The notes under the pieces: generated by a model
Seen by the model: the letters and a program-made list of their open reading frames with translations, nothing else
What the model was told of the DNA's origin: nothing
Database searches by the model: none
Shown: one piece after another, positions 12,633-25,922 of the stretch
How the letters are laid out: every line of letters starts with the position of its first letter
Numbering within the stretch: position 1 is the first letter of the stretch
Source: Spirochaetia bacterium
GTDB lineage: Bacteria > Bacillota > Desulfotomaculia > Desulfotomaculales > JAJYZD01
Length of the DNA: 25,922 nt
Direction: 5' to 3'
Assembly (NCBI GenBank): GCA_035530395.1
Contig: DATKUX010000180.1
Location: 1 to 25,922 of the forward strand
Made by a program: the position numbers and the translations under genes

Positions 12633-13283
12633 TCAGCTCCCAGGCAGGAAATCCTTGAGTTCCAACAGGGAGGACAGCCAATAATCCGGATGGGCGGCCA
12701 GGAGTTCTCCCGTTCCCGTCTCCCCTCCCGCCACTATGGCCACCCTTACCCCGGCGGAGCGGGAGGCCAGGATGTCGGTAATGCTGTCGCCGACGAACAG
12801 CGCTTCGTTTGTACCGGCCTTCAAGCCGGCAAGACATTTCGTTATGCCCTCGCCTTCGGGTTTCATGAGGGTCACATCGTTGCGCGTCAGGAGGAGGGAG
12901 AAATAAGCGCGCAGTCCGAACCGGTCCATGACTTGGGAGACGGCTGCCCGGCCCACGTTGGTCACCAGTCCCGCCGGCACGGCTGTTTCCCGGAGAAACG
13001 TCAGCAATTCACGGGCTCCCGGCCGGGGCGACCAGCGGGTAAGGGCATCGAGATCGTAGCGGTCATAGATGGCCGTCAGACGTTCCCGCCAACCCGGCCG
13101 TATGCCGGGCGACGCCATGGTAACGGCTGTGTTCCACATCCGGGCGTAATTGGCGGCCGGGAAAAGGGAAGCCGGGAAGCCCCACTCCTCCAGGGCTGTT
13201 CTCAGCTCCCTTTCTCCTGCCTGCAAGTTCCACTGAAAGTCGACGAGCGTACCTTCCAGGTCGAATAAGACCGCCTTAATCAT
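12633..13283 (-). CDS. HAD-superfamily hydrolase (phosphoglycolate phosphatase-like)
   Basis: MIKAVLFDLEGTLVDF (motif I), AGLVTNVG (motif II), KPEGEGI (motif III), EALFVGDSITDILASRSAG (motif IV). Confidence 0.85.
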   Translation of the reverse strand: MIKAVLFDLEGTLVDFQWNLQAGERELRTALEEWGFPASLFPAANYARMWNTAVTMASPGIRPGWRERLTAIYDRYDLDALTRWSPRPGARELLTFLRETAVPAGLVTNVGRAAVSQVMDRFGLRAYFSLLLTRNDVTLMKPEGEGITKCLAGLKAGTNEALFVGDSITDILASRSAGVRVAIVAGGETGTGELLAAHPDYWLSSLLELKDFLPGS

Positions 13284-13318
13284 CGGTGCTTCCCTCCGGA
13301 TTGAACCATGGCCCGTAG

Positions 13319-14983
13319 TTAAAGCGACGGGATGCTACTTTCGGCCCGGTCGATCTCTGTTTCCAATTGTTCTCTGAGAACCTTTTTGTTCACCTTGCCG
13401 GAATCACCCACCACCGGCAGGCCGTCGACGACTTCCAGGCGCTCCGGCAGCTTGAAGGAAGCCAGCTTTTTCTCCTGCAGAAACTCCTTTGCTTCGGCAA
13501 GGGTGAAGGTTTGGCCGGGCCTGGGTACGACAAAGGCACAGGCCCGCTCCCCGAGTTCGCGGTCCGGGAAACCGACTACCACCACCAGCTTTATCTTCGG
13601 GTGCTCCTGCAACAGGCCCTCGATCTCCGCCGGGTAAATATTCTGGCCGCCCCGGATGATCATGTCCTTGGTCCGGCCCATGATCCAGAGACATCCCTCA
13701 TCCCATTTCACGGTGTCACCGGTGGTCGTCCAACCTTCGGGGTTGAAAACAGCGGCCGTGCTTTCCGGCTCCCGGTAGTAGCCGGCCGGCGAATGCGGAC
13801 CCCGGAACCAGAGCTGGCCGGGATCGCTTTCCGTAACCTCGTTTCCGTGTTCATCCAGCAGCCGGACGGCATTGCCCGGCAGGGGCCGTCCCACGGTCCT
13901 CCTTCGCAGGTCGGCCGGGTCATCCACCCGGCAGCCGGAGACGGAGCCCACATCCTGGGTGCCGAGGTCACTCGTTATTACGCCGCCCAGGCGCCTTTCC
14001 GCCTCCTGCGCCACATCCGGGGGCAGGTAACCGCCGGCCGAACGGATGAAACGCAACGAGAGGTCGTATTCCTCCACCGGTTGCTCCAGCATGCGGACCA
14101 GATGGGTGGGAACCACCCCGATGCAGGTGGCTTTCTCTTTGGTGATCAGATTGAGCGCTCTTACGGCTGTAAATTCCTCCAGGAGAACGGTCCTGGCCCC
14201 GACCAAAGGGGCCGCGAAGTAGGTGAGCGTGCCGGCGGCCCCGCCGGCGAAAGGGGCGATGGCCGCCGCGGTATCCCCCGGTCCCAGGTTCCAGATATCC
14301 ACCCGGGCCTTGGCCGTGCACAGACGCGGGGCGATGTTCCACTCCACCAGCTTGGGCAGACCGGTCGTGCCGCTGGTGCTGGTCAGAAAGGCCACTTCCC
14401 GGAAGGGATCGAAGCGGCGCTCTTCCAGGATCCGCAGTTTCTCCGCCGCCACCGGATCCCGGGTGAGCTTCATCAGGGAGTAGGTATCCCCGGGGCCTCC
14501 GGACGGCACGTCCTCGCTGAGCAGGAAGGTGTAGCGGAAGTTGGGGGAGAACTTCCTCAGACTCCCGTACATCGCCAGGTAATCGAAATCACGGTAGGTA
14601 TGGGGAATGACGACCGCCGAGACGGCCATCTTCTCCACCATGTAGGATAGTTCTTTCTCCCGCATGTAGGCGTAGACCAACAGGGAGATCAGGCCGGCCC
14701 GTTCGGCGGCCATGCGCGCCAGAAAGGCATACACCTCGTTGGGAGCCTGGATGAGGATGCGGTCGCTCTTCTTTAGACCCATCTCCACCCAGCGGTAGGC
14801 CAGGCGGTCCACCAGATCCCTGGCCTGGGCCCAGGTCAGCCGGTACCGGGAGTCCACCACGGCTTCCTTGTCCGGCATTTCCCGGGCGTTTTGGGCCCAG
14901 AAATCGTAGAACGTTTCGGACGTCCAGTAACCCTTATCCCTGAACTCGTCGATTACTTCGTCTGTGTACCGGATAACTCGCAT
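13319..14983 (-). CDS. AMP-forming acyl/aryl-CoA ligase, candidate 4-hydroxybenzoate-CoA (or related aromatic acid) ligase
   Basis: TSTSGTTGLPKLVEWN, TTGDTVKWDEGCLWIMGRTKDMIIRGGQNIYPAEIEGLLQEHP, GKVNKK. The substrate assignment is from neighbourhood only. Confidence 0.85.
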   Translation of the reverse strand: MRVIRYTDEVIDEFRDKGYWTSETFYDFWAQNAREMPDKEAVVDSRYRLTWAQARDLVDRLAYRWVEMGLKKSDRILIQAPNEVYAFLARMAAERAGLISLLVYAYMREKELSYMVEKMAVSAVVIPHTYRDFDYLAMYGSLRKFSPNFRYTFLLSEDVPSGGPGDTYSLMKLTRDPVAAEKLRILEERRFDPFREVAFLTSTSGTTGLPKLVEWNIAPRLCTAKARVDIWNLGPGDTAAAIAPFAGGAAGTLTYFAAPLVGARTVLLEEFTAVRALNLITKEKATCIGVVPTHLVRMLEQPVEEYDLSLRFIRSAGGYLPPDVAQEAERRLGGVITSDLGTQDVGSVSGCRVDDPADLRRRTVGRPLPGNAVRLLDEHGNEVTESDPGQLWFRGPHSPAGYYREPESTAAVFNPEGWTTTGDTVKWDEGCLWIMGRTKDMIIRGGQNIYPAEIEGLLQEHPKIKLVVVVGFPDRELGERACAFVVPRPGQTFTLAEAKEFLQEKKLASFKLPERLEVVDGLPVVGDSGKVNKKVLREQLETEIDRAESSIPSL

Positions 14984-15004
14984 CTGTCCGCACCACCCCA
15001 ACCC

Positions 15005-16423
15005 TTAATCAAGTCCCAACTCACTCCAGCGGGCCCGCACCTTCTTGACTATTTCCTCATCCAGGAAGATTTCGTCCGGTTTGCGGTCCCACTCGTAAGG
15101 AATGGTCGCGTCCATGATGATCTTGGAACCGATGTCCCGCGCCGTGATGGGCAGGGCGGGATCAAGGGGCGTCGAACGGGCCCGCTTGATGATCTCCGTG
15201 CTCCGGTTCGGGTCGTAGCGCACGGCCAGGGCCCACAACACTTTGTCCAGGTCGTCGGCCGGAATGTCCTCGTCGACGATGATGGTACCCTTCATCCCGT
15301 AGTGGCCCGTCGTGGACCCGTGCACCGCCATGCCGACATGCATGGAATGGCCGGGATACATCGTCTTCACGGAGACGATGCTCCAGAACCGGCCGCCCAT
15401 CTGGGGCGGCAGGTAGACCGACTTGATCCCCGGCACGCCCGCCGCCAGCAGGTCGGTCCAGAGAGTGGCCGTCCTGTTCAGGGACTGGATCATGTGGGTA
15501 TCGGTGATCGGCTTGCCCACCGTGGTCGACCAGAAAACGGGCTTCTCACGCCGCCATACCCGCTGCACGTGCAGGACTTGTTTGGGCCATTCCTCGCCGG
15601 TCTTGCCGGAATAGTAGCCGGTGTACTCGCCGAAGGGCCCCTCTTCCCGCAGGTCGTTGGGGTCGATATAACCATCCAGGATGATTTCGGCATGGGCGGG
15701 CAGGGGCAGGCCGCTCACGTCGCTGGTGAAGACCTCCACGGGCTCTCCCCTTAGGGCACCGATGACGTCGTACTCATCGACCTGCTGCTGGATGAAGGTG
15801 CTGGACACCAGGAAGTGCAAGGGATCGCAGCCGATCACGGCCGCGGCGGGCATCAGCTTCCCCGCCTTCTGGTACTGTTTGAAATGGAAGTCGGCATGCT
15901 TGCCCTTGATGATCTGAACTCCCACATGGTTCCTGTCGTGGACCATCATCCGGTACGTTCCCAGGTTGACCCATCCCGTTTCCAAATCGCGGCTGACCAG
16001 GTAGACCGCCGTGCCGATGAACCGGCCGCCATCCTGGGGATAGAAAAAGGGCACGGGAAAATCCCTCAGGACGTCGACGTCGCCTTCGTCGACCACCTTT
16101 TCGCAGACCGGACCGGAATCCACCCGGACGGGTTTGATCAACCCTTTCCGCGTGGTCTCGACCCAGGTTCTGGCCATTTCGCACATGGAATAGTCCGTGG
16201 GCATGCCCAGAGTGATGGCCAGCCTTTTGTCCGTGGTCATGGAGGACGTCAGCACCGGTATGTCATAGCCCTTGACGTTCTCGAAAAGGAGGGCCGGGCC
16301 TTTTTTTTCCTCGTTGAGCTTGGCGATATGCGCGAGTTCAAGGTTCCAGTCCACTTCGGCGGAGATCCTTTTGAGCTCCCCTTCCTGTTCGCACTTATCG
16401 ATCCATTCCCGCATACTTTTCAT
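15005..16423 (-). CDS. UbiD-family (prenyl-FMN) (de)carboxylase, candidate phenylphosphate carboxylase-type or hydroxybenzoate decarboxylase subunit
   Basis: MKSMREWIDKCEQEGELKRI..., PFGEYTGYYS, EIILDGYIDPNDLREEGPFGEYTG, YDPNRSTEIIKRARSTPLDP; ATG 16423 preceded by AGGGGG. Confidence 0.9.
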   Translation of the reverse strand: MKSMREWIDKCEQEGELKRISAEVDWNLELAHIAKLNEEKKGPALLFENVKGYDIPVLTSSMTTDKRLAITLGMPTDYSMCEMARTWVETTRKGLIKPVRVDSGPVCEKVVDEGDVDVLRDFPVPFFYPQDGGRFIGTAVYLVSRDLETGWVNLGTYRMMVHDRNHVGVQIIKGKHADFHFKQYQKAGKLMPAAAVIGCDPLHFLVSSTFIQQQVDEYDVIGALRGEPVEVFTSDVSGLPLPAHAEIILDGYIDPNDLREEGPFGEYTGYYSGKTGEEWPKQVLHVQRVWRREKPVFWSTTVGKPITDTHMIQSLNRTATLWTDLLAAGVPGIKSVYLPPQMGGRFWSIVSVKTMYPGHSMHVGMAVHGSTTGHYGMKGTIIVDEDIPADDLDKVLWALAVRYDPNRSTEIIKRARSTPLDPALPITARDIGSKIIMDATIPYEWDRKPDEIFLDEEIVKKVRARWSELGLD

Positions 16424-16483: not shown

Positions 16484-17557
16484 TCAACTCGTAAACAGTT
16501 TTTTCCCTGTCAGCAGGTTGCCGGCGATGAGATCGAGGGCGCTTGCTTTCGGTTGGGATAAAGGGACGTTCGGCTTCTGCGTCCAAACGGTTTCCGGCCG
16601 GGTCTGCACCAGGATGATGTTTTCCGGAAAAGCCAGGTCGGCATCAATGGCCCATTCCATGTCCTGGGGAATACCCCAATGCTTTTCCACCATCTTGCCC
16701 AGTCTGGCCAGGTGGATTATCTCTCCATCGGAGAGACAGGGCGCGTCCCGCCTCTCGGGGGGCACCTCCAGTGACTTCACGTTGCCACCCTCATCGTAGA
16801 CCAGTTCGATGGTCTTGTTACAGATTATCCGTTTGGAGATCTCCAGGGTGACCTTGTCCAGGACATACTTGTCCGGGGTAACCTGCCCGCTGACCAGGCT
16901 CTCTCCCAGGCCCCAACTGCCCTCGATAAAGATCCTGGACCGGTCGCCGTTTACCGGATCGAGGGTGAACATAACGCCGGAGGACTTTGACTTGACCATC
17001 TTGAGCACGGCCACACCGATGGGGGAACTCTCCACACGCATGCCGCGCTGCAAACGGTAGGCCATGGCCCGCCCGGTGAAGGAACTTGCCCATACCTTGA
17101 CCACATGGTCTATTACCTCCCTTTCACCCTTCACATTGAGGAAGGTATCGAACTGTCCGGGCATGCTGACGGGCCCGCTGGAGCGCACGGCGACGTCGGC
17201 CTCGGCCAGGTTGCATTTCTTGGACAGTTCGCGGTAATAGGTGAGAATGGGTTCCTTTATTCCCTCCGGCATGGGGCTTCCTTCAACCAGGTTCCGGATG
17301 TACCGGCTGGCTTCCTCGAAGAGGTTGATATCCTCTTTCAGGCGCTCCACCATAGGATCAAGGTATTCGATGATCATCCGGCCCAAACCGGTTTCCTCGA
17401 CGAACTGCTCGTACGCGTCCAGGGTGACGGCATAACCGGGAGGAACAGGCATACCGGCCCGGATCATCTCGCCCAGGTTGTAGCACTTTTTGCCGGCTGT
17501 TCTATAGTTGTCATTGGCCAGCTGTTCCAGCCAACATACATACGGCTTACCGCTCAT
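16484..17557 (-). CDS. PEP-synthase/PPDK N-terminal (ATP-grasp) domain protein, PpsB-like (phenylphosphate synthase beta-like)
   Basis: 358 aa from MSGKPYVCW; CYNLGEMIRAGMPVPPGYAVT, VAVRSSG, FTLDPVNGDRSRIFIEGSWGLGESLVSGQVTPDKYVLDK, ILVQTRPETVW; lacks the phosphohistidine domain, which is supplied by 18422..20257. Confidence 0.82.
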   Translation of the reverse strand: MSGKPYVCWLEQLANDNYRTAGKKCYNLGEMIRAGMPVPPGYAVTLDAYEQFVEETGLGRMIIEYLDPMVERLKEDINLFEEASRYIRNLVEGSPMPEGIKEPILTYYRELSKKCNLAEADVAVRSSGPVSMPGQFDTFLNVKGEREVIDHVVKVWASSFTGRAMAYRLQRGMRVESSPIGVAVLKMVKSKSSGVMFTLDPVNGDRSRIFIEGSWGLGESLVSGQVTPDKYVLDKVTLEISKRIICNKTIELVYDEGGNVKSLEVPPERRDAPCLSDGEIIHLARLGKMVEKHWGIPQDMEWAIDADLAFPENIILVQTRPETVWTQKPNVPLSQPKASALDLIAGNLLTGKKLFTS

Positions 17558-17791: not shown

Positions 17792-18379
17792 CTATTTAAA
17801 AACCGGACGACCAAGTGGCAATATGGGTCTTTCGAAGTGTTCCGCCCACAGTACCGCTGTTGAAGAGTAGATGCAGAACGCAGCGAATAGCAAAAGCAGG
17901 TACCCGGCTATAACGCCTGCGTTGGCTGAGCCACCTAAGATAGAAACCCCTAGTAACAGGAAGGCCACACCAACTTCTGCTATGCCTGCCATAAGCAACC
18001 AGCTTATGCGTCCGAACCCGACCGCATATGTCTCTGTGATAACAAACAACGTAACCCAGAAAACACCCATTACCTCGGGAGTGAACGCCCCTGGCTTCGG
18101 CGCCTGAATCACTTGTTGCCATAATGTAATGGCTGCGCCAAGGGTGATTACCGTGCCGAATACCCCGGATATGGTGCCCAGCAGTAATTCTCCTCTTTTG
18201 AAGAAGATGATACCGGCTAGCAGTTGTGGCAAAGAACATGCCAACAAGATCCCTATCAAGAGGGGGATCGTTGTGGGAGGCACCCATCCCGCGTAAACAG
18301 CCCCTACCGACGCGGTGAGCACAGCCACCGCATTAATAGCCCAGGGAATCTGATTGGCCCACTCTTGTTGTTGAGGCAC
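17792..18379 (-). CDS. GPR1/FUN34/YaaH (SatP-like) small carboxylate uptake transporter family protein
   Basis: 195 aa, about six hydrophobic segments (PLLIGILLACSLPQLLAGIIFFKRGELLLGTISGVFGTVI... ) with family-like layout; GTG start with upstream GGAG. Confidence 0.72.
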   Translation of the reverse strand: MPQQQEWANQIPWAINAVAVLTASVGAVYAGWVPPTTIPLLIGILLACSLPQLLAGIIFFKRGELLLGTISGVFGTVITLGAAITLWQQVIQAPKPGAFTPEVMGVFWVTLFVITETYAVGFGRISWLLMAGIAEVGVAFLLLGVSILGGSANAGVIAGYLLLLFAAFCIYSSTAVLWAEHFERPILPLGRPVFK

Positions 18380-18421: not shown

Positions 18422-20257
18422 CTAGAGTAACGTGATAACCCCCTGGTTGCCGTCCACCCGGATCAACTGTCCGGTTTTAATGGTCGATGTGGCGAAACCG
18501 GTACCTACTACGGCCGGCAAGCCATACTCCCGGCACACGATGGCCGCATGGGACATGATTCCGCCGACATCCGTGACGCAGGCCCTGATTCTGGTAAAGA
18601 TCGGTGCCCAACTGGGGGAGGTGGTGGCCGCGACCAGAATCTCGCCCTCCTGCAGGGTATTGAGCTCTTCCAAGGTCCGGATCACCTTGGCTTTGCCTTC
18701 CACAACTCCCGCCGACCCGGCGAAGCCGCTTAATTCCTTGACATCCGCGAGGTTCACCTTACCCGCGGAGAGCCACGCGTCCATCGATTTGCTGGTTATC
18801 CCCCACAACATGATCGTGAAGGGTTCGCTTATGGTCTCCGGCGCAACCCCCAGGGCCGGTGGAGGCATGAATTCCCTGAACTTGTTGATGACATCCTTGC
18901 GCCAGGCGATTTCCGGCGGCCAGTAGGACGGCCCGCGGCCTTTGACCCCGGTGGCCCAGGCCGTCAGGAGATCATACAGCGCTTCCTGGATCTCGTAGCG
19001 GTTAAGGTACCAGATGTCCTCCCCATCGGCAAAGAAACCATGATTGACAAAAATCCGGGACAATTCACGGATTTTGTTCCAAAACACACCATGGAACCAG
19101 TGCTCCACGTAGAAATTATGGTTTTCGACATAGGGGAAAACCCTTTGGGCCACGGCAATCAACTGCCGGAAAGTATTCCGGTCATCTTCCGCAGCCAAAA
19201 GGTCCGTATATTCGGCGATGATCCGGTCCCGCTCCAGGCGCACCTGTTCCAACGGGCGGGCCAGGCTTTGCCCTTTTTCCAGTTTCCCGATATAGCTCTG
19301 GATGGCCATGAAAGGTATTTCCAACCGGTCCAGCCAGGAATAGTGGTCATGGTACCACCCGGTCCCCGAAGACAGGTAGAACCACGGGTATTTAGCCTTC
19401 TCCAGTCGGTCCAGCCACTGGCGCCCCGGTTCGGTGGTACCCAGCCGGTCGATGATTTCCTGGGGCCGGGAAGACGACTTGACGATTTCAGCCACGCCGA
19501 GATCGACGGCCGCCTGGGCCAGTTCTTTCAACCTCTCGTCCGGCTGGAACAATATCACGTCGATGCCGGCCACCATCTGGGTAATCGTCCGGTCCTCGAT
19601 GCCGGGGAAAGCCTTGTGGCAGAACTCGGTCAAGGGAAGGTAGGCGGCGTAGCCCAGGTTCAAGAATTCGAAGTGGTACTGCCAGGCCCGCAGCGCACAA
19701 TCGATCAAATGGGTGTAGGTTTTGGTCAACTGGTAACCACTGCTTAAGCCAATGCCCTCAAAAACCAGGGAGCTATCCTCCATCTCGGGAAGGTCTTTGA
19801 TCTCGATATCTTCCAGTTCCTTGATAAGGGCCTCCATTTTCTTCTGCCACTTGGCGTACAACTCATCCCAGTTCTCATAGTAAAAGCCGGCGCGCTCCAA
19901 AAAGTGGGGCAACCTTTCCTGAATCTTCGCCGGATCGGTTACCGGTACCGGGCTGATATAGATATATCCGTTAACGATGCGATGATCTATACCCAAAGCC
20001 GGTGGGATCATGAAAATCCTGCTGTTATACTGTGATAGGGCCATAAACCAGGCTTCATCCCAGATCAGGTCGAAAGGGTACATGGGCTCGGGGTAGTGAA
20101 GCCCGTCGTAATACCAGAGGACACTTTCCTCATAGGCTTTTCTCTCCGGATCATCCTTGCTGACCCGGTAAAAGTACGGATACATCCTTTCCCAGCCCTC
20201 GGTACCGGGAATCGTCTTTACCTCGCTGGGCATGGTGAATGCCCTCTGCTCGGCCAT
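18422..20257 (-). CDS. PEP-utilizing phosphohistidine (swivel) domain protein, PpsA-like (phenylphosphate synthase alpha-like)
   Basis: VKTIPGTEGWERMYPYFYRVSKDDPERKAYEE...YYDGLHYPEPMYPFDLIWDEAWFMALSQYNSRIF... and C-terminal swivel motif VTDVGGIMSHAAIVCREYGLPAVVGTGFAT. Start at 20257 with GGAGG RBS. Confidence 0.8.
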   Translation of the reverse strand: MAEQRAFTMPSEVKTIPGTEGWERMYPYFYRVSKDDPERKAYEESVLWYYDGLHYPEPMYPFDLIWDEAWFMALSQYNSRIFMIPPALGIDHRIVNGYIYISPVPVTDPAKIQERLPHFLERAGFYYENWDELYAKWQKKMEALIKELEDIEIKDLPEMEDSSLVFEGIGLSSGYQLTKTYTHLIDCALRAWQYHFEFLNLGYAAYLPLTEFCHKAFPGIEDRTITQMVAGIDVILFQPDERLKELAQAAVDLGVAEIVKSSSRPQEIIDRLGTTEPGRQWLDRLEKAKYPWFYLSSGTGWYHDHYSWLDRLEIPFMAIQSYIGKLEKGQSLARPLEQVRLERDRIIAEYTDLLAAEDDRNTFRQLIAVAQRVFPYVENHNFYVEHWFHGVFWNKIRELSRIFVNHGFFADGEDIWYLNRYEIQEALYDLLTAWATGVKGRGPSYWPPEIAWRKDVINKFREFMPPPALGVAPETISEPFTIMLWGITSKSMDAWLSAGKVNLADVKELSGFAGSAGVVEGKAKVIRTLEELNTLQEGEILVAATTSPSWAPIFTRIRACVTDVGGIMSHAAIVCREYGLPAVVGTGFATSTIKTGQLIRVDGNQGVITLL

Positions 20258-20342: not shown

Positions 20343-22292
20343 CTATTCACCTCCTAAACTGGTTATCAACTTTAAAGCCAACTGTACCTGCAGGTTCGTC
20401 TCCGGATCGTCTAAATCGATGTGGGCGATTTCCCTGATTCTTTTCAGCCGGTATCTCAGGGTGCCCGGGCTCAGGAAGCCTTTCCGCGCCGCTTTGAGGA
20501 TATTGCAATTGTTTTGGTAGTAAAGGTCCAGGGTGGACAGCAGGTGGGATCCGTGTTTTTCCTCGTAGGCCAGCAGCGGGCCGATAACCCGGCCGGCAAA
20601 CTCCTTGAAGGCCTCCCGGTTGATAGAAAGCAGGCTGAAGACACCGAGTTGCTCGTAGGCGAAAGAGCAGTTCCGGCGCCCCAGGGACCGGGCGATTTCC
20701 AGGCAGGCCCGGGCTTCGCGGTAGGAACGGGCGAAATCGGTGACCGTAAAACAGGGCGCGCCTATGCCCAGCCACCAGGTTTCATGAGCCATCTGGACGG
20801 AGAGTTGGTTGGCCAGGTTGTGGAGGACGGTCAAAGACTGGTTGTTTATCTTGTTTGGTTCGGCAGCAGGATCCGGTATCAACATGATGAGATTATTATT
20901 GTATTCAGCGAGAAGGGCGAAGATATGGGCGGATCTTATCGTCCGGTCCACTATTTGCAGCAGGTTCCTGCGGCCGCCCGAAACAGGCGGGGCAGGTCTG
21001 GTGCCCGGATACCTCGCATTGGTCTCCAGAACCACCACGCGGTGAACCTGGGACAAATCCAGTCCAAGCTGCCTTGCCTTCCAAATCACCCCTTCTTCAA
21101 ATTCGTAGCTGCCTTCCATCAATTCCTTCAAAAAGTTTTTCCTGAGTCTAAGTTCGGTTTCAAATGCGGCCTTTTGTTTCAACAAGTCAAGAGCGACTAC
21201 CGTGCTGGTGTGTTCCAGGGCGATATAATCGAGTTCGTTCAATTTGCGCTTACCTTCCAGCGTGGCCACAAAGCCCAGATGATCCTGTCCGGCGATGACC
21301 GGAAGGACTATCAGCTGGTCCTCGTTCCCTTCCGGTGTGGTCCCGTTCAACCGGATGAGACGTTTACCCTGAAAGAGGGACAATATCTCTTCCTTGCGGG
21401 CCGGGTCCGCGCTGGCGTTTTGCCAGGTTGCCCGCAGGTCGGAACCACCGGCGGCCGGCCTTAGGCAGACTGCCAGGGGAAAAAGAGACTGGTCCGTGAC
21501 GATAACGGAATTATCAATTATTTCGGCCAGGCTCCTGGTAATGGCATCGAGACCGTGTCCTTCGAGGACCAGGTTGGTAAGCAGGTTATGGATGGTCATT
21601 GATTTTTGCAGGGCCGCATGCTGGGAAGACAGCACGTTGTTCAGTTTGCGCAATTGGGTCAGGTTATCCTGTAATTTAAGATTGCTCTGCGCGCAAATTC
21701 TGGCGTTGCCGAGGACTGTGGATACCTGGCAACCCAGGAGGTACAGGAAATCCTGGTCGTACCTGGTGAACGGCCTGCCGCCCAGTTTGTCGACGGCCAA
21801 AAGGGCGCCGATATTCCGGCCGGCGAAGGAGAGCGGGACTCCGCAAAGGTTCCGGGCTCTGACGGCCGGGGCTTCGTTCAGTTGGAGCAGCGATGTCTCG
21901 TTCAGGAGGAGCGGGCTGCTCAGTTGCAAAATGTCGGCCAGGGGCCCCCGGGTGACGGCGGCGGAATGCCTTTGCACTTCGTCGTCCCGGCTGTGGTCGT
22001 AGAGAGATAATTCCCGCCCCTCCTCCATCGCCAGAACCAGGTAAGCCTTCTCGGCCTGGAGCAAGGCGCGGGCGTGGCGGACCAACCGATCCGGCAAGTC
22101 CGTGGAATCGACATGGCGGTGGAGATCCATAACGGCCTTATATACGGAGCGCCAGCGAGTCAGCAAATGTCTTTCGGCCACGTCCAGTTTAACCGTTCGG
22201 GCCACCGGTAGATTCTCGGTAATGTGGATCACCCCCCTGTTCCAGTCTTCCGGGGGACCGGTTGACGGCGGCCAAAAAGGACGCCTGCTCAA
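20343..22292 (-). CDS. GAF-domain PucR/CdaR-type transcriptional regulator
   Basis: GAF-like segments (KAYLVLAMEEGRELSLYD..., RNLCGVPLSFAGRNIGALLAVDKLGG) and C-terminal PucR HTH (LLSTLDLYYQNNCNILKAARKGFLSPGTLRYRLKRIREIAHIDLDDPETNLQVQLALKL). The exact start is uncertain. Confidence 0.85.
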   Translation of the reverse strand: MSRRPFWPPSTGPPEDWNRGVIHITENLPVARTVKLDVAERHLLTRWRSVYKAVMDLHRHVDSTDLPDRLVRHARALLQAEKAYLVLAMEEGRELSLYDHSRDDEVQRHSAAVTRGPLADILQLSSPLLLNETSLLQLNEAPAVRARNLCGVPLSFAGRNIGALLAVDKLGGRPFTRYDQDFLYLLGCQVSTVLGNARICAQSNLKLQDNLTQLRKLNNVLSSQHAALQKSMTIHNLLTNLVLEGHGLDAITRSLAEIIDNSVIVTDQSLFPLAVCLRPAAGGSDLRATWQNASADPARKEEILSLFQGKRLIRLNGTTPEGNEDQLIVLPVIAGQDHLGFVATLEGKRKLNELDYIALEHTSTVVALDLLKQKAAFETELRLRKNFLKELMEGSYEFEEGVIWKARQLGLDLSQVHRVVVLETNARYPGTRPAPPVSGGRRNLLQIVDRTIRSAHIFALLAEYNNNLIMLIPDPAAEPNKINNQSLTVLHNLANQLSVQMAHETWWLGIGAPCFTVTDFARSYREARACLEIARSLGRRNCSFAYEQLGVFSLLSINREAFKEFAGRVIGPLLAYEEKHGSHLLSTLDLYYQNNCNILKAARKGFLSPGTLRYRLKRIREIAHIDLDDPETNLQVQLALKLITSLGGE

Positions 22293-22614: not shown

Positions 22615-22662
22615 CTCCTTTGTCCAATTCGGTTAAAACCTTGTACTGACGTCGGCCCGGGC

Positions 22663-22694: not shown

Positions 22695-22795
22695 CGCAAT
22701 GTCCTCCTGCCGGGCGGCCAAAATCATCCGACCGGTTGTGAGGGTGTCTTACAAGATCCACCGACCGGACCCGCGTTACCACGGCAGACGAAACC

Positions 22796-23365
22796 CTAAC
22801 GGCTGTGGTCGCCCCAGCGCCGGAATAGATCATGTTCGATGGCGAATTGATCCAGTATTTTGCCCACCGTCTGATTGACGATGTCGTCAAGGGTGACGGG
22901 CAGGTGATAGAAGGCCGGCATGGGGGGAAGGACGACGGCGCCCAGTTCGGCCACTGCAACCAACAACTTCAAGTGGCCCGCATGCAGGGGGGTCTCCCGG
23001 GGAACAACCACCAGTTTTCTTCTTTCCTTGAGGGTGACATCGGCCGCGCGGACCAGGAGATTGTCGTTGTAAGAGTTGGCAATGGCCGAAACTGTCTTCA
23101 TCGAACAGGGTACAACGACCATTCCGTCCGTCCTGAACGAACCGCTGGCCACCGCAGCCCCGATATCGGAGTTGTCGTAGACGCGGTGGGCCAATCTCCC
23201 TACCTGCTCGACGGAATAGGCGGTTTCCAGCCTGATTGTCCTCCCGGCCGCCTCCGAGACAACCAGGTGAGTCTCGATTTCCGGACAGGCAGAAAGGGTC
23301 TCCAAAAGCCTGATCCCGTATATGGCCCCCGAGGCACCCGATATCCCCACCACAATCCTGGTCAT
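22796..23365 (-). CDS. ubiX: UbiX-like flavin prenyltransferase
   Basis: 189 aa from MTRIVVGISGASGAIYGIRLLETL; VVPCSMKTVSAIANSYNDNLLVRAADVTLKERRKLVVVPRETPLHAGHL; upstream extension in the ORF track is not homologous-looking. Confidence 0.92.
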   Translation of the reverse strand: MTRIVVGISGASGAIYGIRLLETLSACPEIETHLVVSEAAGRTIRLETAYSVEQVGRLAHRVYDNSDIGAAVASGSFRTDGMVVVPCSMKTVSAIANSYNDNLLVRAADVTLKERRKLVVVPRETPLHAGHLKLLVAVAELGAVVLPPMPAFYHLPVTLDDIVNQTVGKILDQFAIEHDLFRRWGDHSR

Positions 23366-23617: not shown

Positions 23618-23653
23618 CAAAAAGAAAATCGTCCCGGCGACCGGGACGATTTT
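23618..23653 (-). terminator. Rho-independent terminator downstream of the 4-hydroxybenzoyl-CoA reductase alpha-like gene
   Basis: Minus strand AAAATCGTCCCGG-tcg-CCGGGACGATTTT followed by CTTTTT; perfect 13-bp stem (arms 23625..23637 and 23641..23653). Confidence 0.87.
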
Positions 23654-23750
23654 GGACAAAGTGCCGATGTCGGGATCCGTCAGGCAAGAGGGCTGGCTGG
23701 CAGCGCGGCGGAAAGGTCCCTTTAACGGCGCGGACCTCCTATCCGGATCC

Positions 23751-25922
23751 TCATCCCTCCTGGGCCCGCTTCTCCTTCAGGGCCCGCCAGACCTTCTCAT
23801 AAGACAGCGGCAGGCTGTCCAGCCGGATACCCATGGCGTCGTAAATAGCGTTGGCGTAGCAGCCCATGGTGGGTATGGTGGCACCCTCCCCCACCTCTTT
23901 GACGCCCCACGGACCGGCCGGCTCCGGTTCCTCGCTATAGACCAGGGCCGAGGTTATCCGGGGCATATCCAAAGCCGTCGGCAGACGGTACTCACCCAGG
24001 TTCCCGTTGAGGATTTTGCCCTTATCGTCAAAGATAACCTGTTCCCAAATCGACTCGCCCATACCCATGAAGAGGGCCCCGTGCACCTGGGCGTGCAACA
24101 GCGACGGGTTGATCACCATGCCGCAGTCGTGCACGTCCCAGACTTCGGCCACCTTGATCTCCCCCGTCTCGGCGTCGATCTCCACTTCGCTGATCTGGGT
24201 GGCGAAGCTATAGGCAGGCGAAGTTCCCACCGCCGCTCCCTTGAACTTCCCGCCCAGCTTGGGCGGCGCATAGGAGCCCTTCCCCACCAGCGGACCCCGT
24301 TTGACGAAAAAGGTGCGGGCTACCTCGGCGAAAGTGAACTTGGCCTCGCCGGTCTCCCGGTCGAAAATTACGCCTAAACGGCAGTCGAGACTGGCCGCAT
24401 CCACCGCCAGTAGTTCGGCCGCCATTCCCATCAGCTGGGTCTTCACCTCTTCACCAGCCCGCTTGACGGCCCAGCCGGACATCAGGGTCTGGCGGCTGGC
24501 GTAGGCGCCGAAATCGTGGGGGGCGGTTTCGGTGTCCGCGGACACGATCTTCATGTTGTCATAGGTAAAGCCCATGGCCTCGGCCGCCATCTGACAGAGG
24601 ACGGTGTCACTCCCCTGGCCGATGTCCACCGCCCCGGTATACAGGGTGGCCGAGGTGCCGTCCTCGTTGACCCGGACGACGGCGGAGGCATGAGGTAGAT
24701 CGGTGCGGTAGATGGGATAACCCGCCCCGGAAACGAAGCTGCCCACGGCGACGCCGATGCCGCGGCCCGGCGGCAGGTGGCCCTTCTTTTCGTCCCAGCC
24801 GGACAGTTCGCGCGCCTTTTCTATGCAGGCCGCCATCTCACAGGAATTAACCTGAAAGTCGTTCGGGGTAACGGTATTGGGCCGCCGGGCGTTGACCAGC
24901 CGCAATTGCAGCGGGTCCATCCCCAGGTCCTTCGCTACCATGTCCAGGTGGCACTCCAGGGCGTAGCGGGGTTGCGGAGCCCCGTGGCCGCGCTGGGCGC
25001 CGCAGGCCGGCAGGTTGGTGTAAACACGGTACATATCGAACTTGAAGTTGTCAAACTCATAGGTTAGGGGCAGCATGGCCCCGGCATAGTAGGCGCTGGC
25101 CACGCCCAGACTGGTGTAAGCGCCCCCGTCCATGATGAAGTTGGCGTGCAGGCCCAGGATACGGCCGTCCTTATCCACCCCGGTGGTGACCTCCATGTAC
25201 TGGCGGTGCCGGCCCCGGTTGTGGGCAAACATCTCGTGGCGGTCGTAGAACATGCGGACCGGTCGCCCGGTCAGACGGGCCAGAACCGCCCCGGCAAACT
25301 CCAGGCCGGTTGGTTCCAGCTTGCCGCCGAATCCCCCGCCCACGAAAGGCTTGATTACCCGGACGTCGCCCATCGGCAGTCCGAACTCCCGGGCCAGGTA
25401 ATACTGGAAATAGTGGGGCGACTGGGTGCTGGAGTAGACCGTGAGCTTGCCGTCCTGCCACATGGATATGGCCGAATGGGGTTCGATCGGGCACTGGTAC
25501 GTCCTCTGGCCCACAAAACGGTCGGTGCGTACGTGGTAGGCCCCGGCAAAGGCCTGGTCCACATCGCCGAAGTGCTGGTGGATCTCGGTGTTGATATTCC
25601 TGGGGAACTCGTCGTGGATCTGGGCCGTCTCCTCATTCATGGCCTTTAACGGGTCCAGGACGGTCGGTAGCTCCTCGTATTCCACCTTGATCAACTTAAG
25701 GGCTTTGTAAACGGTCTCCTCGTCCAGGGCGGCCACAGCCGCCACCTTGTCGCCGACGAAGCGAACCTTATCGATGCAAAAGATGTTCTCGTCCCAGCGG
25801 GCCGGACTGATCCCGTATTTCATCTCCGGCACGTCGCGATGGGTAATCACCGCTTTGACCCCGGGCAGCTTCTCGGCCTCGCTGGTGTCGATGCTCAGGA
25901 TACGGGCGTGGGCATGCGGGCT
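23751..25922 (-). CDS. Xanthine-oxidase-family molybdenum hydroxylase large subunit, 4-hydroxybenzoyl-CoA reductase alpha-like (5' end beyond right edge)
   Basis: FVGDKVAAVAALDEETVYKAL, VGGGFGGKLEPTGLEFAG, GAQRGHGAPQPRYALE, GAVDIGQGSDTVL, PWGVKEVGEGATIPT. The frame stays open to 25922 (SPHAHARILSIDTSEAEKLPGVKAVITHRDVPEM). Confidence 0.85.
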   Translation of the reverse strand, partial: SPHAHARILSIDTSEAEKLPGVKAVITHRDVPEMKYGISPARWDENIFCIDKVRFVGDKVAAVAALDEETVYKALKLIKVEYEELPTVLDPLKAMNEETAQIHDEFPRNINTEIHQHFGDVDQAFAGAYHVRTDRFVGQRTYQCPIEPHSAISMWQDGKLTVYSSTQSPHYFQYYLAREFGLPMGDVRVIKPFVGGGFGGKLEPTGLEFAGAVLARLTGRPVRMFYDRHEMFAHNRGRHRQYMEVTTGVDKDGRILGLHANFIMDGGAYTSLGVASAYYAGAMLPLTYEFDNFKFDMYRVYTNLPACGAQRGHGAPQPRYALECHLDMVAKDLGMDPLQLRLVNARRPNTVTPNDFQVNSCEMAACIEKARELSGWDEKKGHLPPGRGIGVAVGSFVSGAGYPIYRTDLPHASAVVRVNEDGTSATLYTGAVDIGQGSDTVLCQMAAEAMGFTYDNMKIVSADTETAPHDFGAYASRQTLMSGWAVKRAGEEVKTQLMGMAAELLAVDAASLDCRLGVIFDRETGEAKFTFAEVARTFFVKRGPLVGKGSYAPPKLGGKFKGAAVGTSPAYSFATQISEVEIDAETGEIKVAEVWDVHDCGMVINPSLLHAQVHGALFMGMGESIWEQVIFDDKGKILNGNLGEYRLPTALDMPRITSALVYSEEPEPAGPWGVKEVGEGATIPTMGCYANAIYDAMGIRLDSLPLSYEKVWRALKEKRAQEG

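What the first reader, a model, noticed from the sequence alone, without database searches (positions are those of the whole stretch)
12633..25922. Compact anaerobic phenol/phenolic-acid carboxylation and CoA-activation cluster
One strand carries PpsA-like and PpsB-like halves of a PEP-synthase-type kinase, a UbiD-family carboxylase, a UbiX cofactor enzyme, an AMP-forming ligase and a 4-hydroxybenzoyl-CoA reductase alpha-like subunit. Known anaerobic phenol pathways (Thauera-type) go phenol -> phenylphosphate -> 4-hydroxybenzoate -> 4-hydroxybenzoyl-CoA -> benzoyl-CoA, and each step has a plausible gene here. Substrate could also be catechol, a cresol or another phenolic.
Basis: partly seen in the sequence, partly recalled or inferred. 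Interest (0 to 1): 0.85.

Follow-up and report, generated by a model that had tools for sequence, protein, structure and literature searches.

The report
Strict-anaerobe phenol-to-benzoyl-CoA gene cluster
This is a real but ordinary gene cluster for breaking down phenol without oxygen, of the reduced "one carboxylase subunit" type already known from Geobacter and Desulfatiglans, here in an uncultured Peptococcaceae-like bacterium with a few extra accessory genes.

Summary
Window 12053-25922 (minus strand) carries, in order: hcrA-like (cut by the window end), ubiX, a GAF-PucR regulator, ppsA, an acetate-channel-family membrane gene, ppsB, one PpcB-type ubiD, an aryl-CoA ligase, a HAD-IA phosphatase and two HD phosphohydrolases.

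PpsA, the UbiD and HcrA each pass curated NCBIfam equivalog cut-offs: the model that scores Thauera PpsA best, PpcB and 4-hydroxybenzoyl-CoA reductase alpha. PpsA is 59% and the UbiD 54% identical to the Thauera aromatica proteins.

The core order ppsA-ppsB-ubiD(-ligase) recurs in 57 of 83 related loci. An independent assembly is 100% identical over 15 kb.

The window has no PpcA, PpcC, PpcD or PpsC. It is therefore the "PpcB-only" strict-anaerobe type (Geobacter metallireducens, Desulfatiglans anilini, Desulfotomaculum gibsoniae, Peptococcaceae BF), not the Thauera type.

Two modest additions. The membrane protein and the HAD each belong to subfamilies that recur in such clusters. The single UbiD keeps the full canonical prFMN/Mn site, which Thauera-type PpcB has lost.

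The parts
23751..25922 (-). [quoted passage not shown]
   Evidence: TIGR03194 scores 1010.7 bits against a cut-off of 994.55, matching profile positions 57-746. The frame is open to the window edge. It is 90% identical to the full-length 765-aa gene in L082, which is preceded there by FAD and 2Fe-2S subunit genes.
23625..23653 (-). terminator-like hairpin (13-bp stem plus T run) downstream of hcrA
   Evidence: This is a consensus scan only, and the overall number of such sites is not above the shuffled controls.
22796..23365 (-). ubiX, the flavin prenyltransferase that makes prFMN for the UbiD
   Evidence: NF004685 scores 272 bits against 188 and TIGR00421 scores 250 against 109. It is 63% identical to the Thauera cluster's UbiX. 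It is absent at this position in the closest relative L082.
20343..22232 (-). GAF + GGDEF_2-like + PucR-type HTH transcription regulator; the start codon is uncertain (22232 or 22292)
   Evidence: Pfam PF13185, PF17853 and PF13556. The Logan gene call is 629 aa. Orthologous regulators sit upstream of ppsA in L003, L007, L018, L082, L085 and L095. In L084 the orthologous regulator carries XylR_N + V4R aromatic-sensor domains.
18422..20257 (-). ppsA, the phenylphosphate synthase alpha subunit (substrate domain plus swivel His domain)
   Evidence: NF006152 scores 914.5 bits against 723, full length. The same model scores Thauera PpsA at 1324. Identity to Thauera PpsA is 59%. The TDVGGxMSH motif with His570 is invariant in alignment A1.
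17792..18379 (-). GPR1/FUN34/YaaH (acetate-channel family) membrane protein inserted between ppsA and ppsB
   Evidence: PF01184 scores 30.6 bits against 25. Orthologs at 61-77% identity lie in or beside pps-type clusters in L085, L087, L091 and L093, and beside hcr-like genes in L092. It is absent in L082. Its GC3 is 0.55, against 0.70-0.82 for its neighbours.
16484..17557 (-). ppsB, the stand-alone ATP-grasp (PPDK_N) subunit of phenylphosphate synthase
   Evidence: PF01326 scores 312.7 bits. It is 42% identical to Thauera PpsB. A PpsB gene follows ppsA directly in nearly all of the 83 related loci. Sequence alone does not separate it from the PEP-synthase N-domain.
15005..16423 (-). PpcB-type UbiD-family (de)carboxylase, the only UbiD in the cluster
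   Evidence: TIGR02724 scores 582.4 bits against 468.95. It is 54% identical to Thauera PpcB and 30% to PpcA. It groups with the single-UbiD loci inside the PpcB superclade. N165, R170, H188, E229, E273 and E278 match the Fdc1 residues N168, R173, H191, E233, E277 and E282 by motif and spacing (residue roles from PMC4947166).
13319..14983 (-). AMP-forming aryl-CoA ligase, putative 4-hydroxybenzoate-CoA ligase
   Evidence: PF00501 and PF13193. The best solved relatives are 2,3-dihydroxybenzoate-AMP and salicylate-AMP ligases. Orthologs at 59-83% identity directly follow the UbiD in 31 of 57 single-UbiD loci. It falls below the benzoate-CoA ligase family cut-off (174 vs 375).
12633..13283 (-). 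HAD-IA phosphatase or pyrophosphatase-like hydrolase
   Evidence: PF13419 and PF00702. The best NCBIfam match is PpaX pyrophosphatase, below its cut-off. Homologs at 50-55% identity sit at the end of pps clusters (L095) or next to ppsAB and flavin enzymes (L093). Some are fused to a CTP-dependent riboflavin-kinase domain (L094). It is absent in L082.
12053..12628 (-). HD-domain phosphohydrolase, copy 1; it starts 4 nt after the HAD stop
   Evidence: PF01966. No NCBIfam or PDB relative was found. Orthologs follow the ligase or ubiX in L082 (76%), L018 (52%) and L003 (50%).
11460..12035 (-). HD-domain phosphohydrolase, copy 2 (tandem duplicate). The ORF runs on to 10974 and overlaps the convergent deacetylase gene.
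   Evidence: It is 72% identical to copy 1 over 191 aa. The ORF is 10974-12035. The Logan annotation does not call it as a gene.

Best explanation
The region is a catabolic operon set from an uncultured Peptococcaceae-like Bacillota bacterium. It encodes the strict-anaerobe ("PpcB-only") version of the anaerobic phenol pathway. The steps below are inferred from homology and conserved gene order; none was measured here.

1. The GAF-PucR regulator switches the operon on in response to a phenolic effector.
2. PpsB (ATP-grasp) pyrophosphorylates His570 of PpsA. PpsA then passes the beta-phosphate to phenol, giving phenylphosphate + AMP + Pi.
3. The single PpcB-type UbiD uses prFMN made by UbiX to convert phenylphosphate + CO2 to 4-hydroxybenzoate. 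Phosphate release pays for the carboxylation.
4. The DhbE-like ligase makes 4-hydroxybenzoyl-CoA.
5. The HcrA-type molybdenum reductase removes the hydroxyl to give benzoyl-CoA. Its FAD and 2Fe-2S subunit genes are expected just beyond the window, as in L082.

Three accessory roles are guesses:
- The acetate-channel-family membrane protein probably moves an aromatic monocarboxylate such as 4-hydroxybenzoate, or exports acetate.
- The HAD-IA and HD hydrolases most likely support flavin/prFMN cofactor supply.
- Alternatively, they act as the pathway's phosphatase.
For: **Family assignments**
- PpsA passes NF006152, the model that scores Thauera PpsA highest.
- The UbiD passes PpcB TIGR02724, HcrA passes TIGR03194 and UbiX passes NF004685.
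- Identities to the Thauera aromatica cluster in L031 are 59% (PpsA), 42% (PpsB), 54% (PpcB) and 63% (UbiX).
- The catalytic His motif of PpsA is invariant.
- The UbiD keeps all six Fdc1-type Mn/prFMN and Glu-Arg-Glu residues (PMC4947166).

**Phylogeny and synteny**
- The UbiD groups with the Geobacter-type single UbiDs inside the PpcB superclade.
- ppsA-ppsB-ubiD occurs in 57 loci and is followed by the same ligase family in 31 of them.
- Close relatives L082 and L095 (86-92% aa identity) have hcrB-hcrC-hcrA-REG-ppsA-ppsB-ubiD-ligase.
- In L084 the orthologous regulator carries XylR_N/V4R aromatic-sensing domains.

**Literature**
- The same gene content (pps-alpha, pps-beta, ppc-beta only, CoA ligase, HCR) is phenol-induced in Desulfatiglans anilini, and phenylphosphate synthase activity was measured there (PMC6114531).
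- According to that paper, the Geobacter metallireducens cluster likewise contains only a ppc-beta homologue.
- PpsA, PpsB and HcrA homologs are already annotated in Peptococcaceae culture BF (PMC5852087).
Against: - There is no expression or enzyme data for this organism.
- PpcA, PpcC, PpcD and PpsC are missing.
- Phenylphosphate carboxylase activity could not be demonstrated even in D. anilini (PMC6114531), so step 3 is unproven for this whole cluster type.
- PpsB is as similar to a PEP-synthase N-domain (45%) as to Thauera PpsB (42%).
- The ligase is not in the benzoate/4-hydroxybenzoate-CoA ligase family (174 vs 375 bits).
- hcrB and hcrC are not in the window. In L082 they score below the HCR beta and gamma cut-offs (154.6 vs 404.55; 185.4 vs 257.8).
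- The window lacks the UPF0261 gene found in 47 of 57 single-UbiD loci.
- Substrate specificity (phenol versus catechol, cresols or hydroquinone) cannot be read from sequence.
Confidence: 0.75

Rival explanations
1. The enzymes work the same way, but the physiological substrate is another phenolic or an arylamine (catechol, hydroquinone, o-cresol or aniline). The cluster would then yield a substituted 4-hydroxybenzoyl-CoA or 4-aminobenzoyl-CoA.
For: - The D. anilini aniline cluster has the same parts list: a two-subunit kinase, one Ppc-beta-like UbiD, an acyl-CoA synthetase and an HCR-like reductase (PMC7500099).
- L087 and L091 show that the same membrane protein, UbiD and ligase families also accompany a divergent PpsA-like kinase, only 42-43% identical to the window's.
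- The ligase is of the DhbE/salicylate type.
Against: - Pas-alpha is only 26.7% identical to Pps-alpha, and the aniline proteins are at most 42% identical to Thauera's (PMC7500099). The window's PpsA is 59% identical to Thauera PpsA and passes the same equivalog model.
- The kinases for phenol, alkylphenols and hydroxyphenylethanones are reported to form separate clades (PMC9618137).
Confidence: 0.15
2. The phosphate stays on the ring during carboxylation, as in the Cre and Hpe pathways. The UbiD would make 4-phosphooxybenzoate. A separate soluble phosphohydrolase (HAD-IA or HD here; LMW-PTP or the UPF0261 kinase in relatives) would then remove the phosphate. This replaces the integrated delta subunit of the Thauera enzyme.
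For: - Phosphatase-type genes of four different families sit at the tail of these clusters: HAD-IA and HD here, LMWPc in L087 and L091, HAD in L095.
- In the Hpe pathway a PpsAB-like kinase is followed by carboxylation of the phosphorylated compound and then by a HAD-type phosphatase, HpeD (PMC9618137).
- No KdsC-like delta subunit is present.
Against: - A phosphorylated phenol is a poor nucleophile for para-carboxylation.
- HAD-IA homologs are fused to a riboflavin-kinase domain or sit beside flavin enzymes, which points to cofactor supply.
- HAD-IA and HD are present in only 12 and 8 of 57 loci, not significantly more than in Thauera-type loci.
- The closest relative L082 has no HAD.
Confidence: 0.08
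3. The genes are neighbours without a shared pathway. The Pps-like proteins would be a split PEP synthase or antibiotic kinase, and the UbiD/UbiX pair would be a detoxifying phenolic-acid decarboxylase.
For: PpsB is 45% identical to a PEP-synthase N-domain. Public annotation calls PpsA a "PEP-utilizing enzyme".
Against: - The first ~500 residues of PpsA have no PEP synthase or RPH match and match the Thauera PpsA model over its full length.
- The gene order is conserved across Bacillota, Desulfobacterota and Proteobacteria.
- The UbiD scores 291 bits against a cut-off of 650 on the VdcC decarboxylase model.
Confidence: 0.02

Closest known systems
Geobacter metallireducens GS-15 pps-ppcB cluster and Desulfatiglans anilini phe cluster (strict-anaerobe phenol pathway)
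   Same: Both have ppsA-ppsB followed by a single PpcB-type UbiD and no ppcA, ppcC or ppcD in the cluster. [quoted passage not shown] The window's UbiD groups with UbiDs from Geobacter-labelled MAG loci (L060, L076).
   Different: - The window has a PucR/GAF regulator.
- It has no PpsC, which is present in 39 of 57 such loci.
- It has no UPF0261 gene, which is present in 47 of 57.
- It adds a membrane channel gene, a HAD-IA gene and two HD genes.
- PpsA identity to the Geobacter-type loci is only about 60%.
Thauera aromatica ppsABC-ppcBCAD-ubiD-ubiX cluster
   Same: The chemistry is expected to be the same. PpsA is 59%, PpsB 42%, PpcB 54% and UbiX 63% identical. The same NCBIfam models apply.
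   Different: - PpcA, PpcC (a KdsC-like HAD phosphatase), PpcD, PpsC and the third UbiD are absent.
- The Thauera cluster has no ligase or hcr genes next to it.
- Thauera-type PpcB has Arg/Lys at the Fdc1 H191 position and Asp at E233, where the window's UbiD keeps His and Glu.
Peptococcaceae culture BF / Desulfotomaculum gibsoniae phenol genes
   Same: These are from the same bacterial group. PpsA, PpsB and HcrA are annotated in BF (PMC5852087), and D. gibsoniae is described as having the strict-anaerobe carboxylase type (PMC4148979).
   Different: The nearest sequence found (87% PpsA identity) is an unnamed Peptococcaceae MAG protein annotated only as "PEP-utilizing enzyme".
Desulfatiglans anilini ani cluster (aniline to 4-aminobenzoyl-CoA via phenylphosphoamidate)
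   Same: The parts list is the same: a two-subunit kinase, one Ppc-beta-like UbiD, an acyl-CoA synthetase and an HCR-like reductase (PMC7500099).
   Different: Pas-alpha is only about 27% identical to Pps-alpha, whereas the window's PpsA is a close PpsA ortholog. The ani UbiD needed a second UbiD from another locus to be active in vitro.
CreHI / HpeHI / AcvAB aromatic dikinases with HAD-type phosphatase (HpeD)
   Same: A PpsAB-like two-component kinase phosphorylates a phenolic OH, and a dedicated HAD-superfamily phosphatase is encoded in the cluster (PMC9618137).
   Different: Those pathways are aerobic. They use biotin carboxylases or P450 oxidation rather than a UbiD, and their kinases form separate clades. 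HpeD is NagD-like, not HAD-IA.

Membership tests
Phenylphosphate synthase (PpsABC) | Alpha subunit: ~610 aa with a full-length match to PpsA and a C-terminal PEP-utilizer swivel domain carrying the phospho-His | tested here: met
   NF006152 scores 914.5 against 723 over residues 9-612. Thauera PpsA scores 1324 on the same model. Identity is 59%. His570 sits in the invariant TDVGGxMSH motif.
Phenylphosphate synthase (PpsABC) | Beta subunit: a stand-alone ~40 kDa ATP-grasp (PPDK_N) protein encoded next to ppsA | tested here: met
   It is 357 aa with PF01326 only. It lies next to ppsA here and in the related loci.
Phenylphosphate synthase (PpsABC) | Beta subunit forms a clade distinct from the PEP synthase N-domain | tested here: inconclusive
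   Identity is 45% to PDB 9dae and 42% to Thauera PpsB. Thauera PpsB is itself 46% identical to 9dae. Only one outgroup was available.
Phenylphosphate synthase (PpsABC) | Gamma subunit (CBS-domain PpsC, stimulatory) | tested here: not met
   No ORF of 50 aa or more in the window matches Thauera PpsC. PpsC is reported as not essential for activity (PMC6114531).
Phenylphosphate synthase (PpsABC) | ATP-dependent formation of phenylphosphate + AMP + Pi | not testable with these tools
   This needs an enzyme assay.
Phenylphosphate carboxylase, Thauera type (PpcABCD) | Beta subunit (PpcB) | tested here: met
   TIGR02724 scores 582.4 against 468.95. The protein lies in the PpcB superclade.
Phenylphosphate carboxylase, Thauera type (PpcABCD) | Alpha subunit (PpcA, a second UbiD paralog) | tested here: not met
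   The window has only one UbiD. It scores 186.7 against 564.6 on TIGR02723.
Phenylphosphate carboxylase, Thauera type (PpcABCD) | Delta (KdsC-like HAD-IIIA phosphatase) and gamma (10 kDa) subunits | tested here: not met
   No window ORF matches Thauera PpcC or PpcD. By BLAST the window's HAD matches no Thauera reference, PpcC included. Its best family matches are HAD-IA types (PpaX, phosphoglycolate phosphatase); only 25 of its 34 NCBIfam hits were shown.
PpcB-only strict-anaerobe phenol cluster (Geobacter / D. anilini type) | ppsA-ppsB-single PpcB-like ubiD contiguous, with no ppcA, ppcC or ppcD | tested here: met
   The same order occurs in 57 loci, including MAG loci labelled Geobacter (L060, L076). 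The type is described in PMC6114531 and PMC4148979.
prFMN-dependent UbiD enzymes | Mn/prFMN ligands (Fdc1 N168, H191, E233), the R173/E277/E282 network, and a UbiX partner | tested here: met
   N165, H188, E229, R170, E273 and E278 match by motif and spacing. Residue roles are from PMC4947166. ubiX is in the cluster. The mapping was not checked against an Fdc1 sequence alignment.
Benzoate / 4-hydroxybenzoate-CoA ligase family (TIGR02262) | Score above the family cut-off | tested here: not met
   It scores 174 against 375.25. It is closer to DhbE, EntE and salicylate-AMP ligases. It may work like a 4-hydroxybenzoate-CoA ligase but is not a member of that family.
4-Hydroxybenzoyl-CoA reductase (HcrABC) | Alpha (molybdopterin) subunit | tested here: met
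   TIGR03194 scores 1010.7 against 994.55 on the truncated protein. The full-length ortholog in L082 scores 1111.
4-Hydroxybenzoyl-CoA reductase (HcrABC) | Beta (FAD, with an extra [4Fe-4S] loop) and gamma (2Fe-2S) subunits | tested here: inconclusive
   These lie outside the window. In L082 the adjacent genes score 154.6 against 404.55 (beta, matched in two pieces, 288 aa) and 185.4 against 257.8 (gamma).
Phenylphosphoamidate (aniline) synthase Pas-alpha/beta | Closer to Pas-alpha than to Pps-alpha | not tested
   The Pas sequences could not be fetched. Indirect evidence: Pas-alpha is 26.7% identical to Pps-alpha (PMC7500099), whereas the window is 59% identical to Thauera PpsA.
AceTr / GPR1-FUN34-YaaH channels | Pfam PF01184 above gathering score; NCBIfam AceTr equivalog | tested here: inconclusive
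   PF01184 scores 30.6 against 25, so it is met. NF038013 scores 24.8 against 50 and NF007941 scores 29.9 against 297, so these are not met. It is a divergent subfamily.

The most novel reading that the evidence does not exclude
Strict anaerobes may carboxylate phenol by a mechanism different from the Thauera four-subunit enzyme. A single, canonical prFMN-dependent UbiD would do the C-C chemistry. Phosphate handling would be outsourced to interchangeable soluble partners: HAD-IA or HD here, LMW-PTP in L087 and L091, and the MarK-type UPF0261 aromatic kinase in 47 of 57 related loci. Phosphate removal might come after carboxylation, as in the Cre and Hpe pathways. In relatives that carry UPF0261, the phosphoryl group might go back to ADP, which would ease the ATP budget that puzzles the field. 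A dedicated acetate-channel-family membrane protein would be part of this module.
Probability: 0.2. Interest if true: 0.65.

Novelty: new member of a known kind. Interest (0 to 1): 0.3.

Why it matters
Anaerobic phenol degradation matters for contaminated aquifers, coal and oil reservoirs and digesters. Public annotation of this contig says only "PEP-utilizing enzyme" and "HAD-IA family hydrolase", so recognising it correctly assigns phenol-degrading potential to an uncultured Peptococcaceae-like organism.

The kind of cluster is already known, so the finding does not change the picture. Its modest value is comparative. It is a stripped-down PpcB-only cluster, with no PpsC and no UPF0261, which has picked up ubiX, a channel gene and a HAD gene. 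It therefore helps define which genes are core and which are accessory in the still unexplained carboxylation step of strict anaerobes.

Tried and rejected
**Extending the contig past 25922 to find hcrB and hcrC**
- An exact-protein look-up of UbiX found nothing on record.
- Two exact-pattern scans of JGI metagenome contigs with hcrA 32- and 41-mers found nothing.

**Literature**
- The Geobacter phenol paper (PMC2698347) is not held, so statements about Geobacter rest on how PMC6114531 and PMC4148979 describe it.
- A search for the run accession SRR8554504 found no paper.

**Regulatory and RNA signals**
- There are no Rfam families and no tRNAs in the window.
- The promoter and terminator scan gave counts no higher than shuffled controls. 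Only the 13-bp hairpin after hcrA is worth noting.
- A search for shared 9-mers among the intergenic regions gave nothing convincing.

**Ideas considered and rejected**
- HAD as an ortholog of the Thauera delta subunit: rejected. It is HAD-IA rather than KdsC-like HAD-IIIA, and it does not hit PpcC.
- The aniline (Pas) system: judged unlikely on reported identities (PMC7500099).
- A VdcCD/ShdCD-type reversible 4-hydroxybenzoate decarboxylase: rejected. The UbiD scores 291 against 650 on VdcC and the cluster carries ppsAB.

**Other limits**
- HAD-IA and HD enrichment in single-UbiD versus Thauera-type loci is not significant (p = 0.17 and 0.19).
- No structure predictions were run, because none would decide between the explanations.

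Full report
**What is there**

All real genes of window 11.4-25.9 kb lie on the minus strand. Start codons were chosen by ribosome-binding sites and agree with an independent gene call. In transcription order the genes are:

| Gene | Coordinates |
|---|---|
| hcrA-like | 25922 (cut) to 23751 |
| ubiX | 23365-22796 |
| GAF-PucR regulator | 22232-20343 |
| ppsA | 20257-18422 |
| GPR1/FUN34/YaaH membrane protein | 18379-17792 |
| ppsB | 17557-16484 |
| ubiD | 16423-15005 |
| AMP-forming ligase | 14983-13319 |
| HAD-IA hydrolase | 13283-12633 |
| HD-domain gene 1 | 12628-12053 |
| HD-domain gene 2 | 12035 to about 11460 |

- The hcrA frame is open to the last base of the window, so it is truncated only by the window edge.
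- A Logan assembly of run SRR8554504 is 100% identical to window 9511-24586, so the cluster is not an assembly artefact.
- The PpsA protein is identical to GenBank HUW65957.1, annotated "PEP-utilizing enzyme [Spirochaetia bacterium]".
- The nearest relatives are Peptococcaceae, Desulfotomaculales and unclassified Bacillota MAGs, so the Spirochaetia label is probably a binning error.

**Family assignments**

- *PpsA.* Its best match is NCBIfam NF006152 (914.5 bits, cut-off 723), covering residues 9-612. That model is unnamed ("hypothetical protein"), but the PpsA ortholog in a Thauera aromatica genome (L031) scores 1324 bits on it. Identity to that protein is 59% over the full length. PEP synthase and rifampicin phosphotransferase match only the last ~100 residues, the swivel His domain. 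The TDVGGxMSH motif with His570 is invariant in an alignment of 12 family members.
- *UbiD.* It passes the PpcB equivalog TIGR02724 (582 vs 469). It fails PpcA (187 vs 565) and VdcC (291 vs 650).
- *UbiX.* It passes its family cut-offs.
- *HcrA.* It passes TIGR03194 (1010.7 vs 994.55) despite lacking about 56 N-terminal residues.
- *Ligase.* It is an ANL-family enzyme. Its closest solved relatives are 2,3-dihydroxybenzoate-AMP and salicylate-AMP ligases. It is not in the benzoate-CoA ligase family (174 vs 375 bits).
- *PpsB.* It is a stand-alone PPDK_N ATP-grasp protein, 42% identical to Thauera PpsB. It is equally similar (45%) to the N-domain of a PEP synthase (PDB 9dae), and so is Thauera PpsB (46%). 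Its identity as PpsB therefore rests on architecture and on its position next to ppsA, which holds in nearly all of the related loci, not on sequence clustering.

**Which kind of phenol cluster**

I fetched 80 genomic loci encoding PpsA relatives and a few more through exact-protein look-ups. I then mapped window and Thauera reference proteins onto their ORFs.

Two architectures appear.
- Eighteen loci have the Thauera order ppsA-ppsB-ppsC-ppcB-ppcC-ppcA-ppcD-ubiD-ubiX.
- Fifty-seven, including the window, have ppsA-ppsB followed by a single UbiD and no ppcA, ppcC or ppcD.

In the single-UbiD loci:
- The window's ligase family follows the UbiD in 31 of 57, against 1 of 18 Thauera-type loci.
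- PpsC is present in 39 of 57.
- UbiX is present in 43 of 57.

The single-UbiD type occurs in MAGs labelled Geobacter, Sulfuritalea, Syntrophobacteraceae, Desulfomonilaceae, Syntrophorhabdus and Bacillota.

In a neighbour-joining tree the window's UbiD lies among these single UbiDs. They share a superclade with Thauera PpcB, well separated from PpcA and from the third Thauera UbiD. No window ORF matches PpsC, PpcA, PpcC or PpcD.

This is the type already described in the literature:
[quoted passage not shown] It is phenol-induced, and phenylphosphate synthase activity was measured (PMC6114531).
[quoted passage not shown] - PpsA, PpsB and HcrA homologs are annotated in Peptococcaceae culture BF (PMC5852087).

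The finding is therefore a new member of a known kind.

**Alternative substrates**

The D. anilini aniline cluster has the same parts list. However, its kinase alpha subunit is only 26.7% identical to Pps-alpha, and its proteins are at most 42% identical to Thauera's (PMC7500099). The window's PpsA is a close PpsA ortholog, which makes aniline unlikely.

I could not fetch Pas, CreH or HpeH sequences for a direct tree. Phenol versus catechol, cresols or hydroquinone cannot be resolved from sequence.

One supporting hint for a phenolic effector: in L084 the regulator orthologous to the window's carries XylR_N and V4R domains in front of GAF-PucR.

**Mechanism**

Inferred from homology, not shown:
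1. PpsB loads a pyrophosphoryl group on His570 of PpsA, and PpsA phosphorylates phenol.
2. The UbiD carboxylates at the para position, driven by loss of phosphate.
3. The ligase and the HcrA-type reductase lead to benzoyl-CoA.

The carboxylation step is the weak link. It has not been demonstrated in vitro for the PpcB-only type (PMC6114531).

One observation bears on it. The window's UbiD and 54-56 of the 56 single-type UbiDs keep the full set of residues that bind Mn2+/prFMN and form the Glu-Arg-Glu network in Fdc1. These are N168, H191, E233, R173, E277 and E282 (roles from PMC4947166); in the window they are N165, H188, E229, R170, E273 and E278. I mapped them by motif and spacing. Thauera-type PpcB has Arg or Lys at the H191 position (19 of 19) and Asp at E233 (17 of 19). 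PpcA has Leu or Gly at H191. The single UbiD thus looks like a standard prFMN enzyme, which fits the ubiX gene in the cluster.

**Accessory genes**

DNA alignment with the closest relative L082 (hcrB-hcrC-hcrA-REG-ppsA-ppsB-ubiD-ligase-HD; 76-87% nucleotide identity) shows three gene-sized extra segments in the window. They contain ubiX, the membrane gene and the HAD gene.

*Membrane protein.*
- It belongs to a small subfamily, with 98 hits in the protein database search.
- Of six other contexts examined, three are inside pps-type clusters (L085, L087, L091). One is 5 kb from a ppsAB-FMN_dh-HAD unit (L093), one is next to hcr-like genes (L092) and one is unrelated (L089).
- Its GC3 is 0.55 against 0.70-0.82 for its neighbours, consistent with recent acquisition.
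- Its role is a guess: uptake of an aromatic monocarboxylate such as 4-hydroxybenzoate, or acetate export.

*HAD-IA.*
- Homologs at 50-55% identity are the last gene of the cluster in L095 (REG-ppsA-ppsB-ubiD-ligase-UPF0261-HAD).
- They also follow ppsAB and an FMN-dependent dehydrogenase in L093.
- In L094 the HAD is fused to a CTP-dependent riboflavin-kinase domain after ppsAB and a flavin reductase.
- The Thauera cluster ends with a riboflavin-kinase-like gene and a Nudix gene after ubiX.
- Together this favours a role in FMN/prFMN supply. A role as pathway phosphatase, by analogy with HpeD (PMC9618137) and the Thauera delta subunit, remains possible.

*HD protein.* It has no characterised relative, but it follows the ligase or ubiX in the Bacillota relatives L082, L018 and L003.

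**Caveats on the reductase**

Only the alpha subunit lies in the window. In L082 the adjacent FAD and 2Fe-2S subunit genes score below the HCR-specific cut-offs, and the FAD subunit is only 288 aa. The enzyme may therefore differ from the Thauera reductase in how electrons enter.

**Verdict**

It is a new member of a known kind, with interest about 0.3.

The most novel reading that remains open is that these clusters use a single canonical prFMN UbiD with interchangeable soluble phosphate-handling partners. I give that about 0.2.

Noticed in passing
Related loci, e.g. L060 14569-15885, L003 7242-8522, L095 8697-9983; absent from the window: A UPF0261 (PF06792) gene follows the UbiD or the ligase in 47 of 57 single-UbiD pps loci and in 0 of 18 Thauera-type loci (Fisher p = 1.4e-10; the loci are not phylogenetically independent). 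The L095 protein matches PDB 9MPY (MarK) at 215 bits over its full length. MarK is an ADP-forming aromatic kinase and the first UPF0261 protein with a known activity (PMC12624787). These phenol clusters may therefore encode a second, cheaper phenol kinase or a phosphotransferase.
   Followed up: partly
UbiD alignment of 108 sequences; window UbiD residues H188 and E229: Thauera-type PpcB has Arg or Lys instead of the Mn-ligand His (Fdc1 H191) in 19 of 19 sequences and Asp instead of Glu (E233) in 17 of 19. PpcA has Leu or Gly at the His position. The single UbiDs of the PpcB-only clusters keep His (54 of 56) and Glu (56 of 56).
   Followed up: partly
L087 13960-14424 and L091 6958-7566: In two metagenome loci a low-molecular-weight phosphotyrosine-phosphatase-family gene (PF01451) sits between the ligase and UPF0261. 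The cluster there is MEM-ppsA-like-ppsB-ubiD-ligase, and the PpsA-like kinase is only 42-43% identical to the window's. This is possibly a sister system for another phenolic substrate.
   Followed up: no
L094 9471-11053: In a Deferrisomatales MAG, ppsA-ppsB are followed by a flavin reductase and by a fusion of a CTP-dependent riboflavin-kinase domain (PF01982) with a HAD-IA domain 50% identical to the window's HAD. No UbiD follows in the 3 kb downstream.
   Followed up: partly
window 17792-18379: The membrane gene has a GC3 of 0.55 against 0.70-0.82 for all neighbouring cluster genes, and it is missing at this position in the closest relative L082. It looks like a recent insertion. By eye, its N-terminus lacks the NPAPLGL-type signature that I recall for this family; I did not check this.
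   Followed up: partly
window 1-5979: The left 6 kb has a different composition: GC3 0.49-0.60 against 0.73-0.82 from 6096 onward, with a sharp change between two adjacent sigma-54 PAS regulator genes (4534-5979 and 6096-7853). It encodes a partial acyl-CoA ligase, a D-2-hydroxyacid dehydrogenase and indolepyruvate:ferredoxin oxidoreductase IorB/IorA, that is, an arylpyruvate module. It is either a horizontally acquired island or a chimeric join. The independent assembly L001 does not cover it.
   Followed up: partly
window 2497-4250: iorA is split into two overlapping ORFs, 3786-4250 (N-terminal part) and 2497-3822 (IOR_alpha positions 148-595), by a single frameshift that I place by eye near 3845-3855. 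It does not lie in a long homopolymer. It is either a pseudogene or an assembly error.
   Followed up: partly
window 10974-12628: There is a tandem duplication of the HD-domain gene (72% aa identity). The second copy has no stop at the expected place and reads on for about 160 further codons, overlapping the 3' end of the convergent polysaccharide deacetylase gene (10488-11459). The Logan annotation does not call it as a gene.
   Followed up: no
L084 7279-9717: The regulator upstream of ppsA in this Bacillota MAG is an 812-aa fusion of XylR_N + V4R (the aromatic-effector sensor of XylR/DmpR-type regulators) with GAF-GGDEF_2-PucR HTH. This is an unusual pairing of a sigma-54-type sensor module with a PucR output.
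   Followed up: no
L082 3880-5357: Upstream of the hcrA ortholog, the FAD subunit (288 aa) and the 2Fe-2S subunit score below the HCR beta and gamma equivalog cut-offs (154.6 vs 404.55, matched in two pieces; 185.4 vs 257.8). The alpha subunit passes (1111 vs 994.55). The beta subunit probably lacks the extra [4Fe-4S] loop of the Thauera enzyme.
   Followed up: partly
whole window (public record): The proteins are deposited as a TPA MAG labelled Spirochaetia bacterium. All close relatives of the cluster proteins are from Peptococcaceae, Desulfotomaculales or unclassified Bacillota MAGs. The bin label is likely wrong.
   Followed up: partly
L031 19487-20577: The Thauera aromatica pps-ppc cluster ends, after ubiX, with a CTP-dependent riboflavin-kinase-like gene and a Nudix hydrolase gene. 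These are plausible FMN and dimethylallyl-phosphate supply genes for prFMN synthesis.
   Followed up: no
window 9571-10380 and 10488-11459 (+ strand): Two adjacent paralogous polysaccharide deacetylase genes (the second is called as PF01522) with signal-peptide-like N-termini lie between the phenol cluster and the housekeeping genes (nth, a SpoU/TrmL-like tRNA methyltransferase named by eye only, and a CoA-binding protein). They are unrelated to the finding.
   Followed up: no
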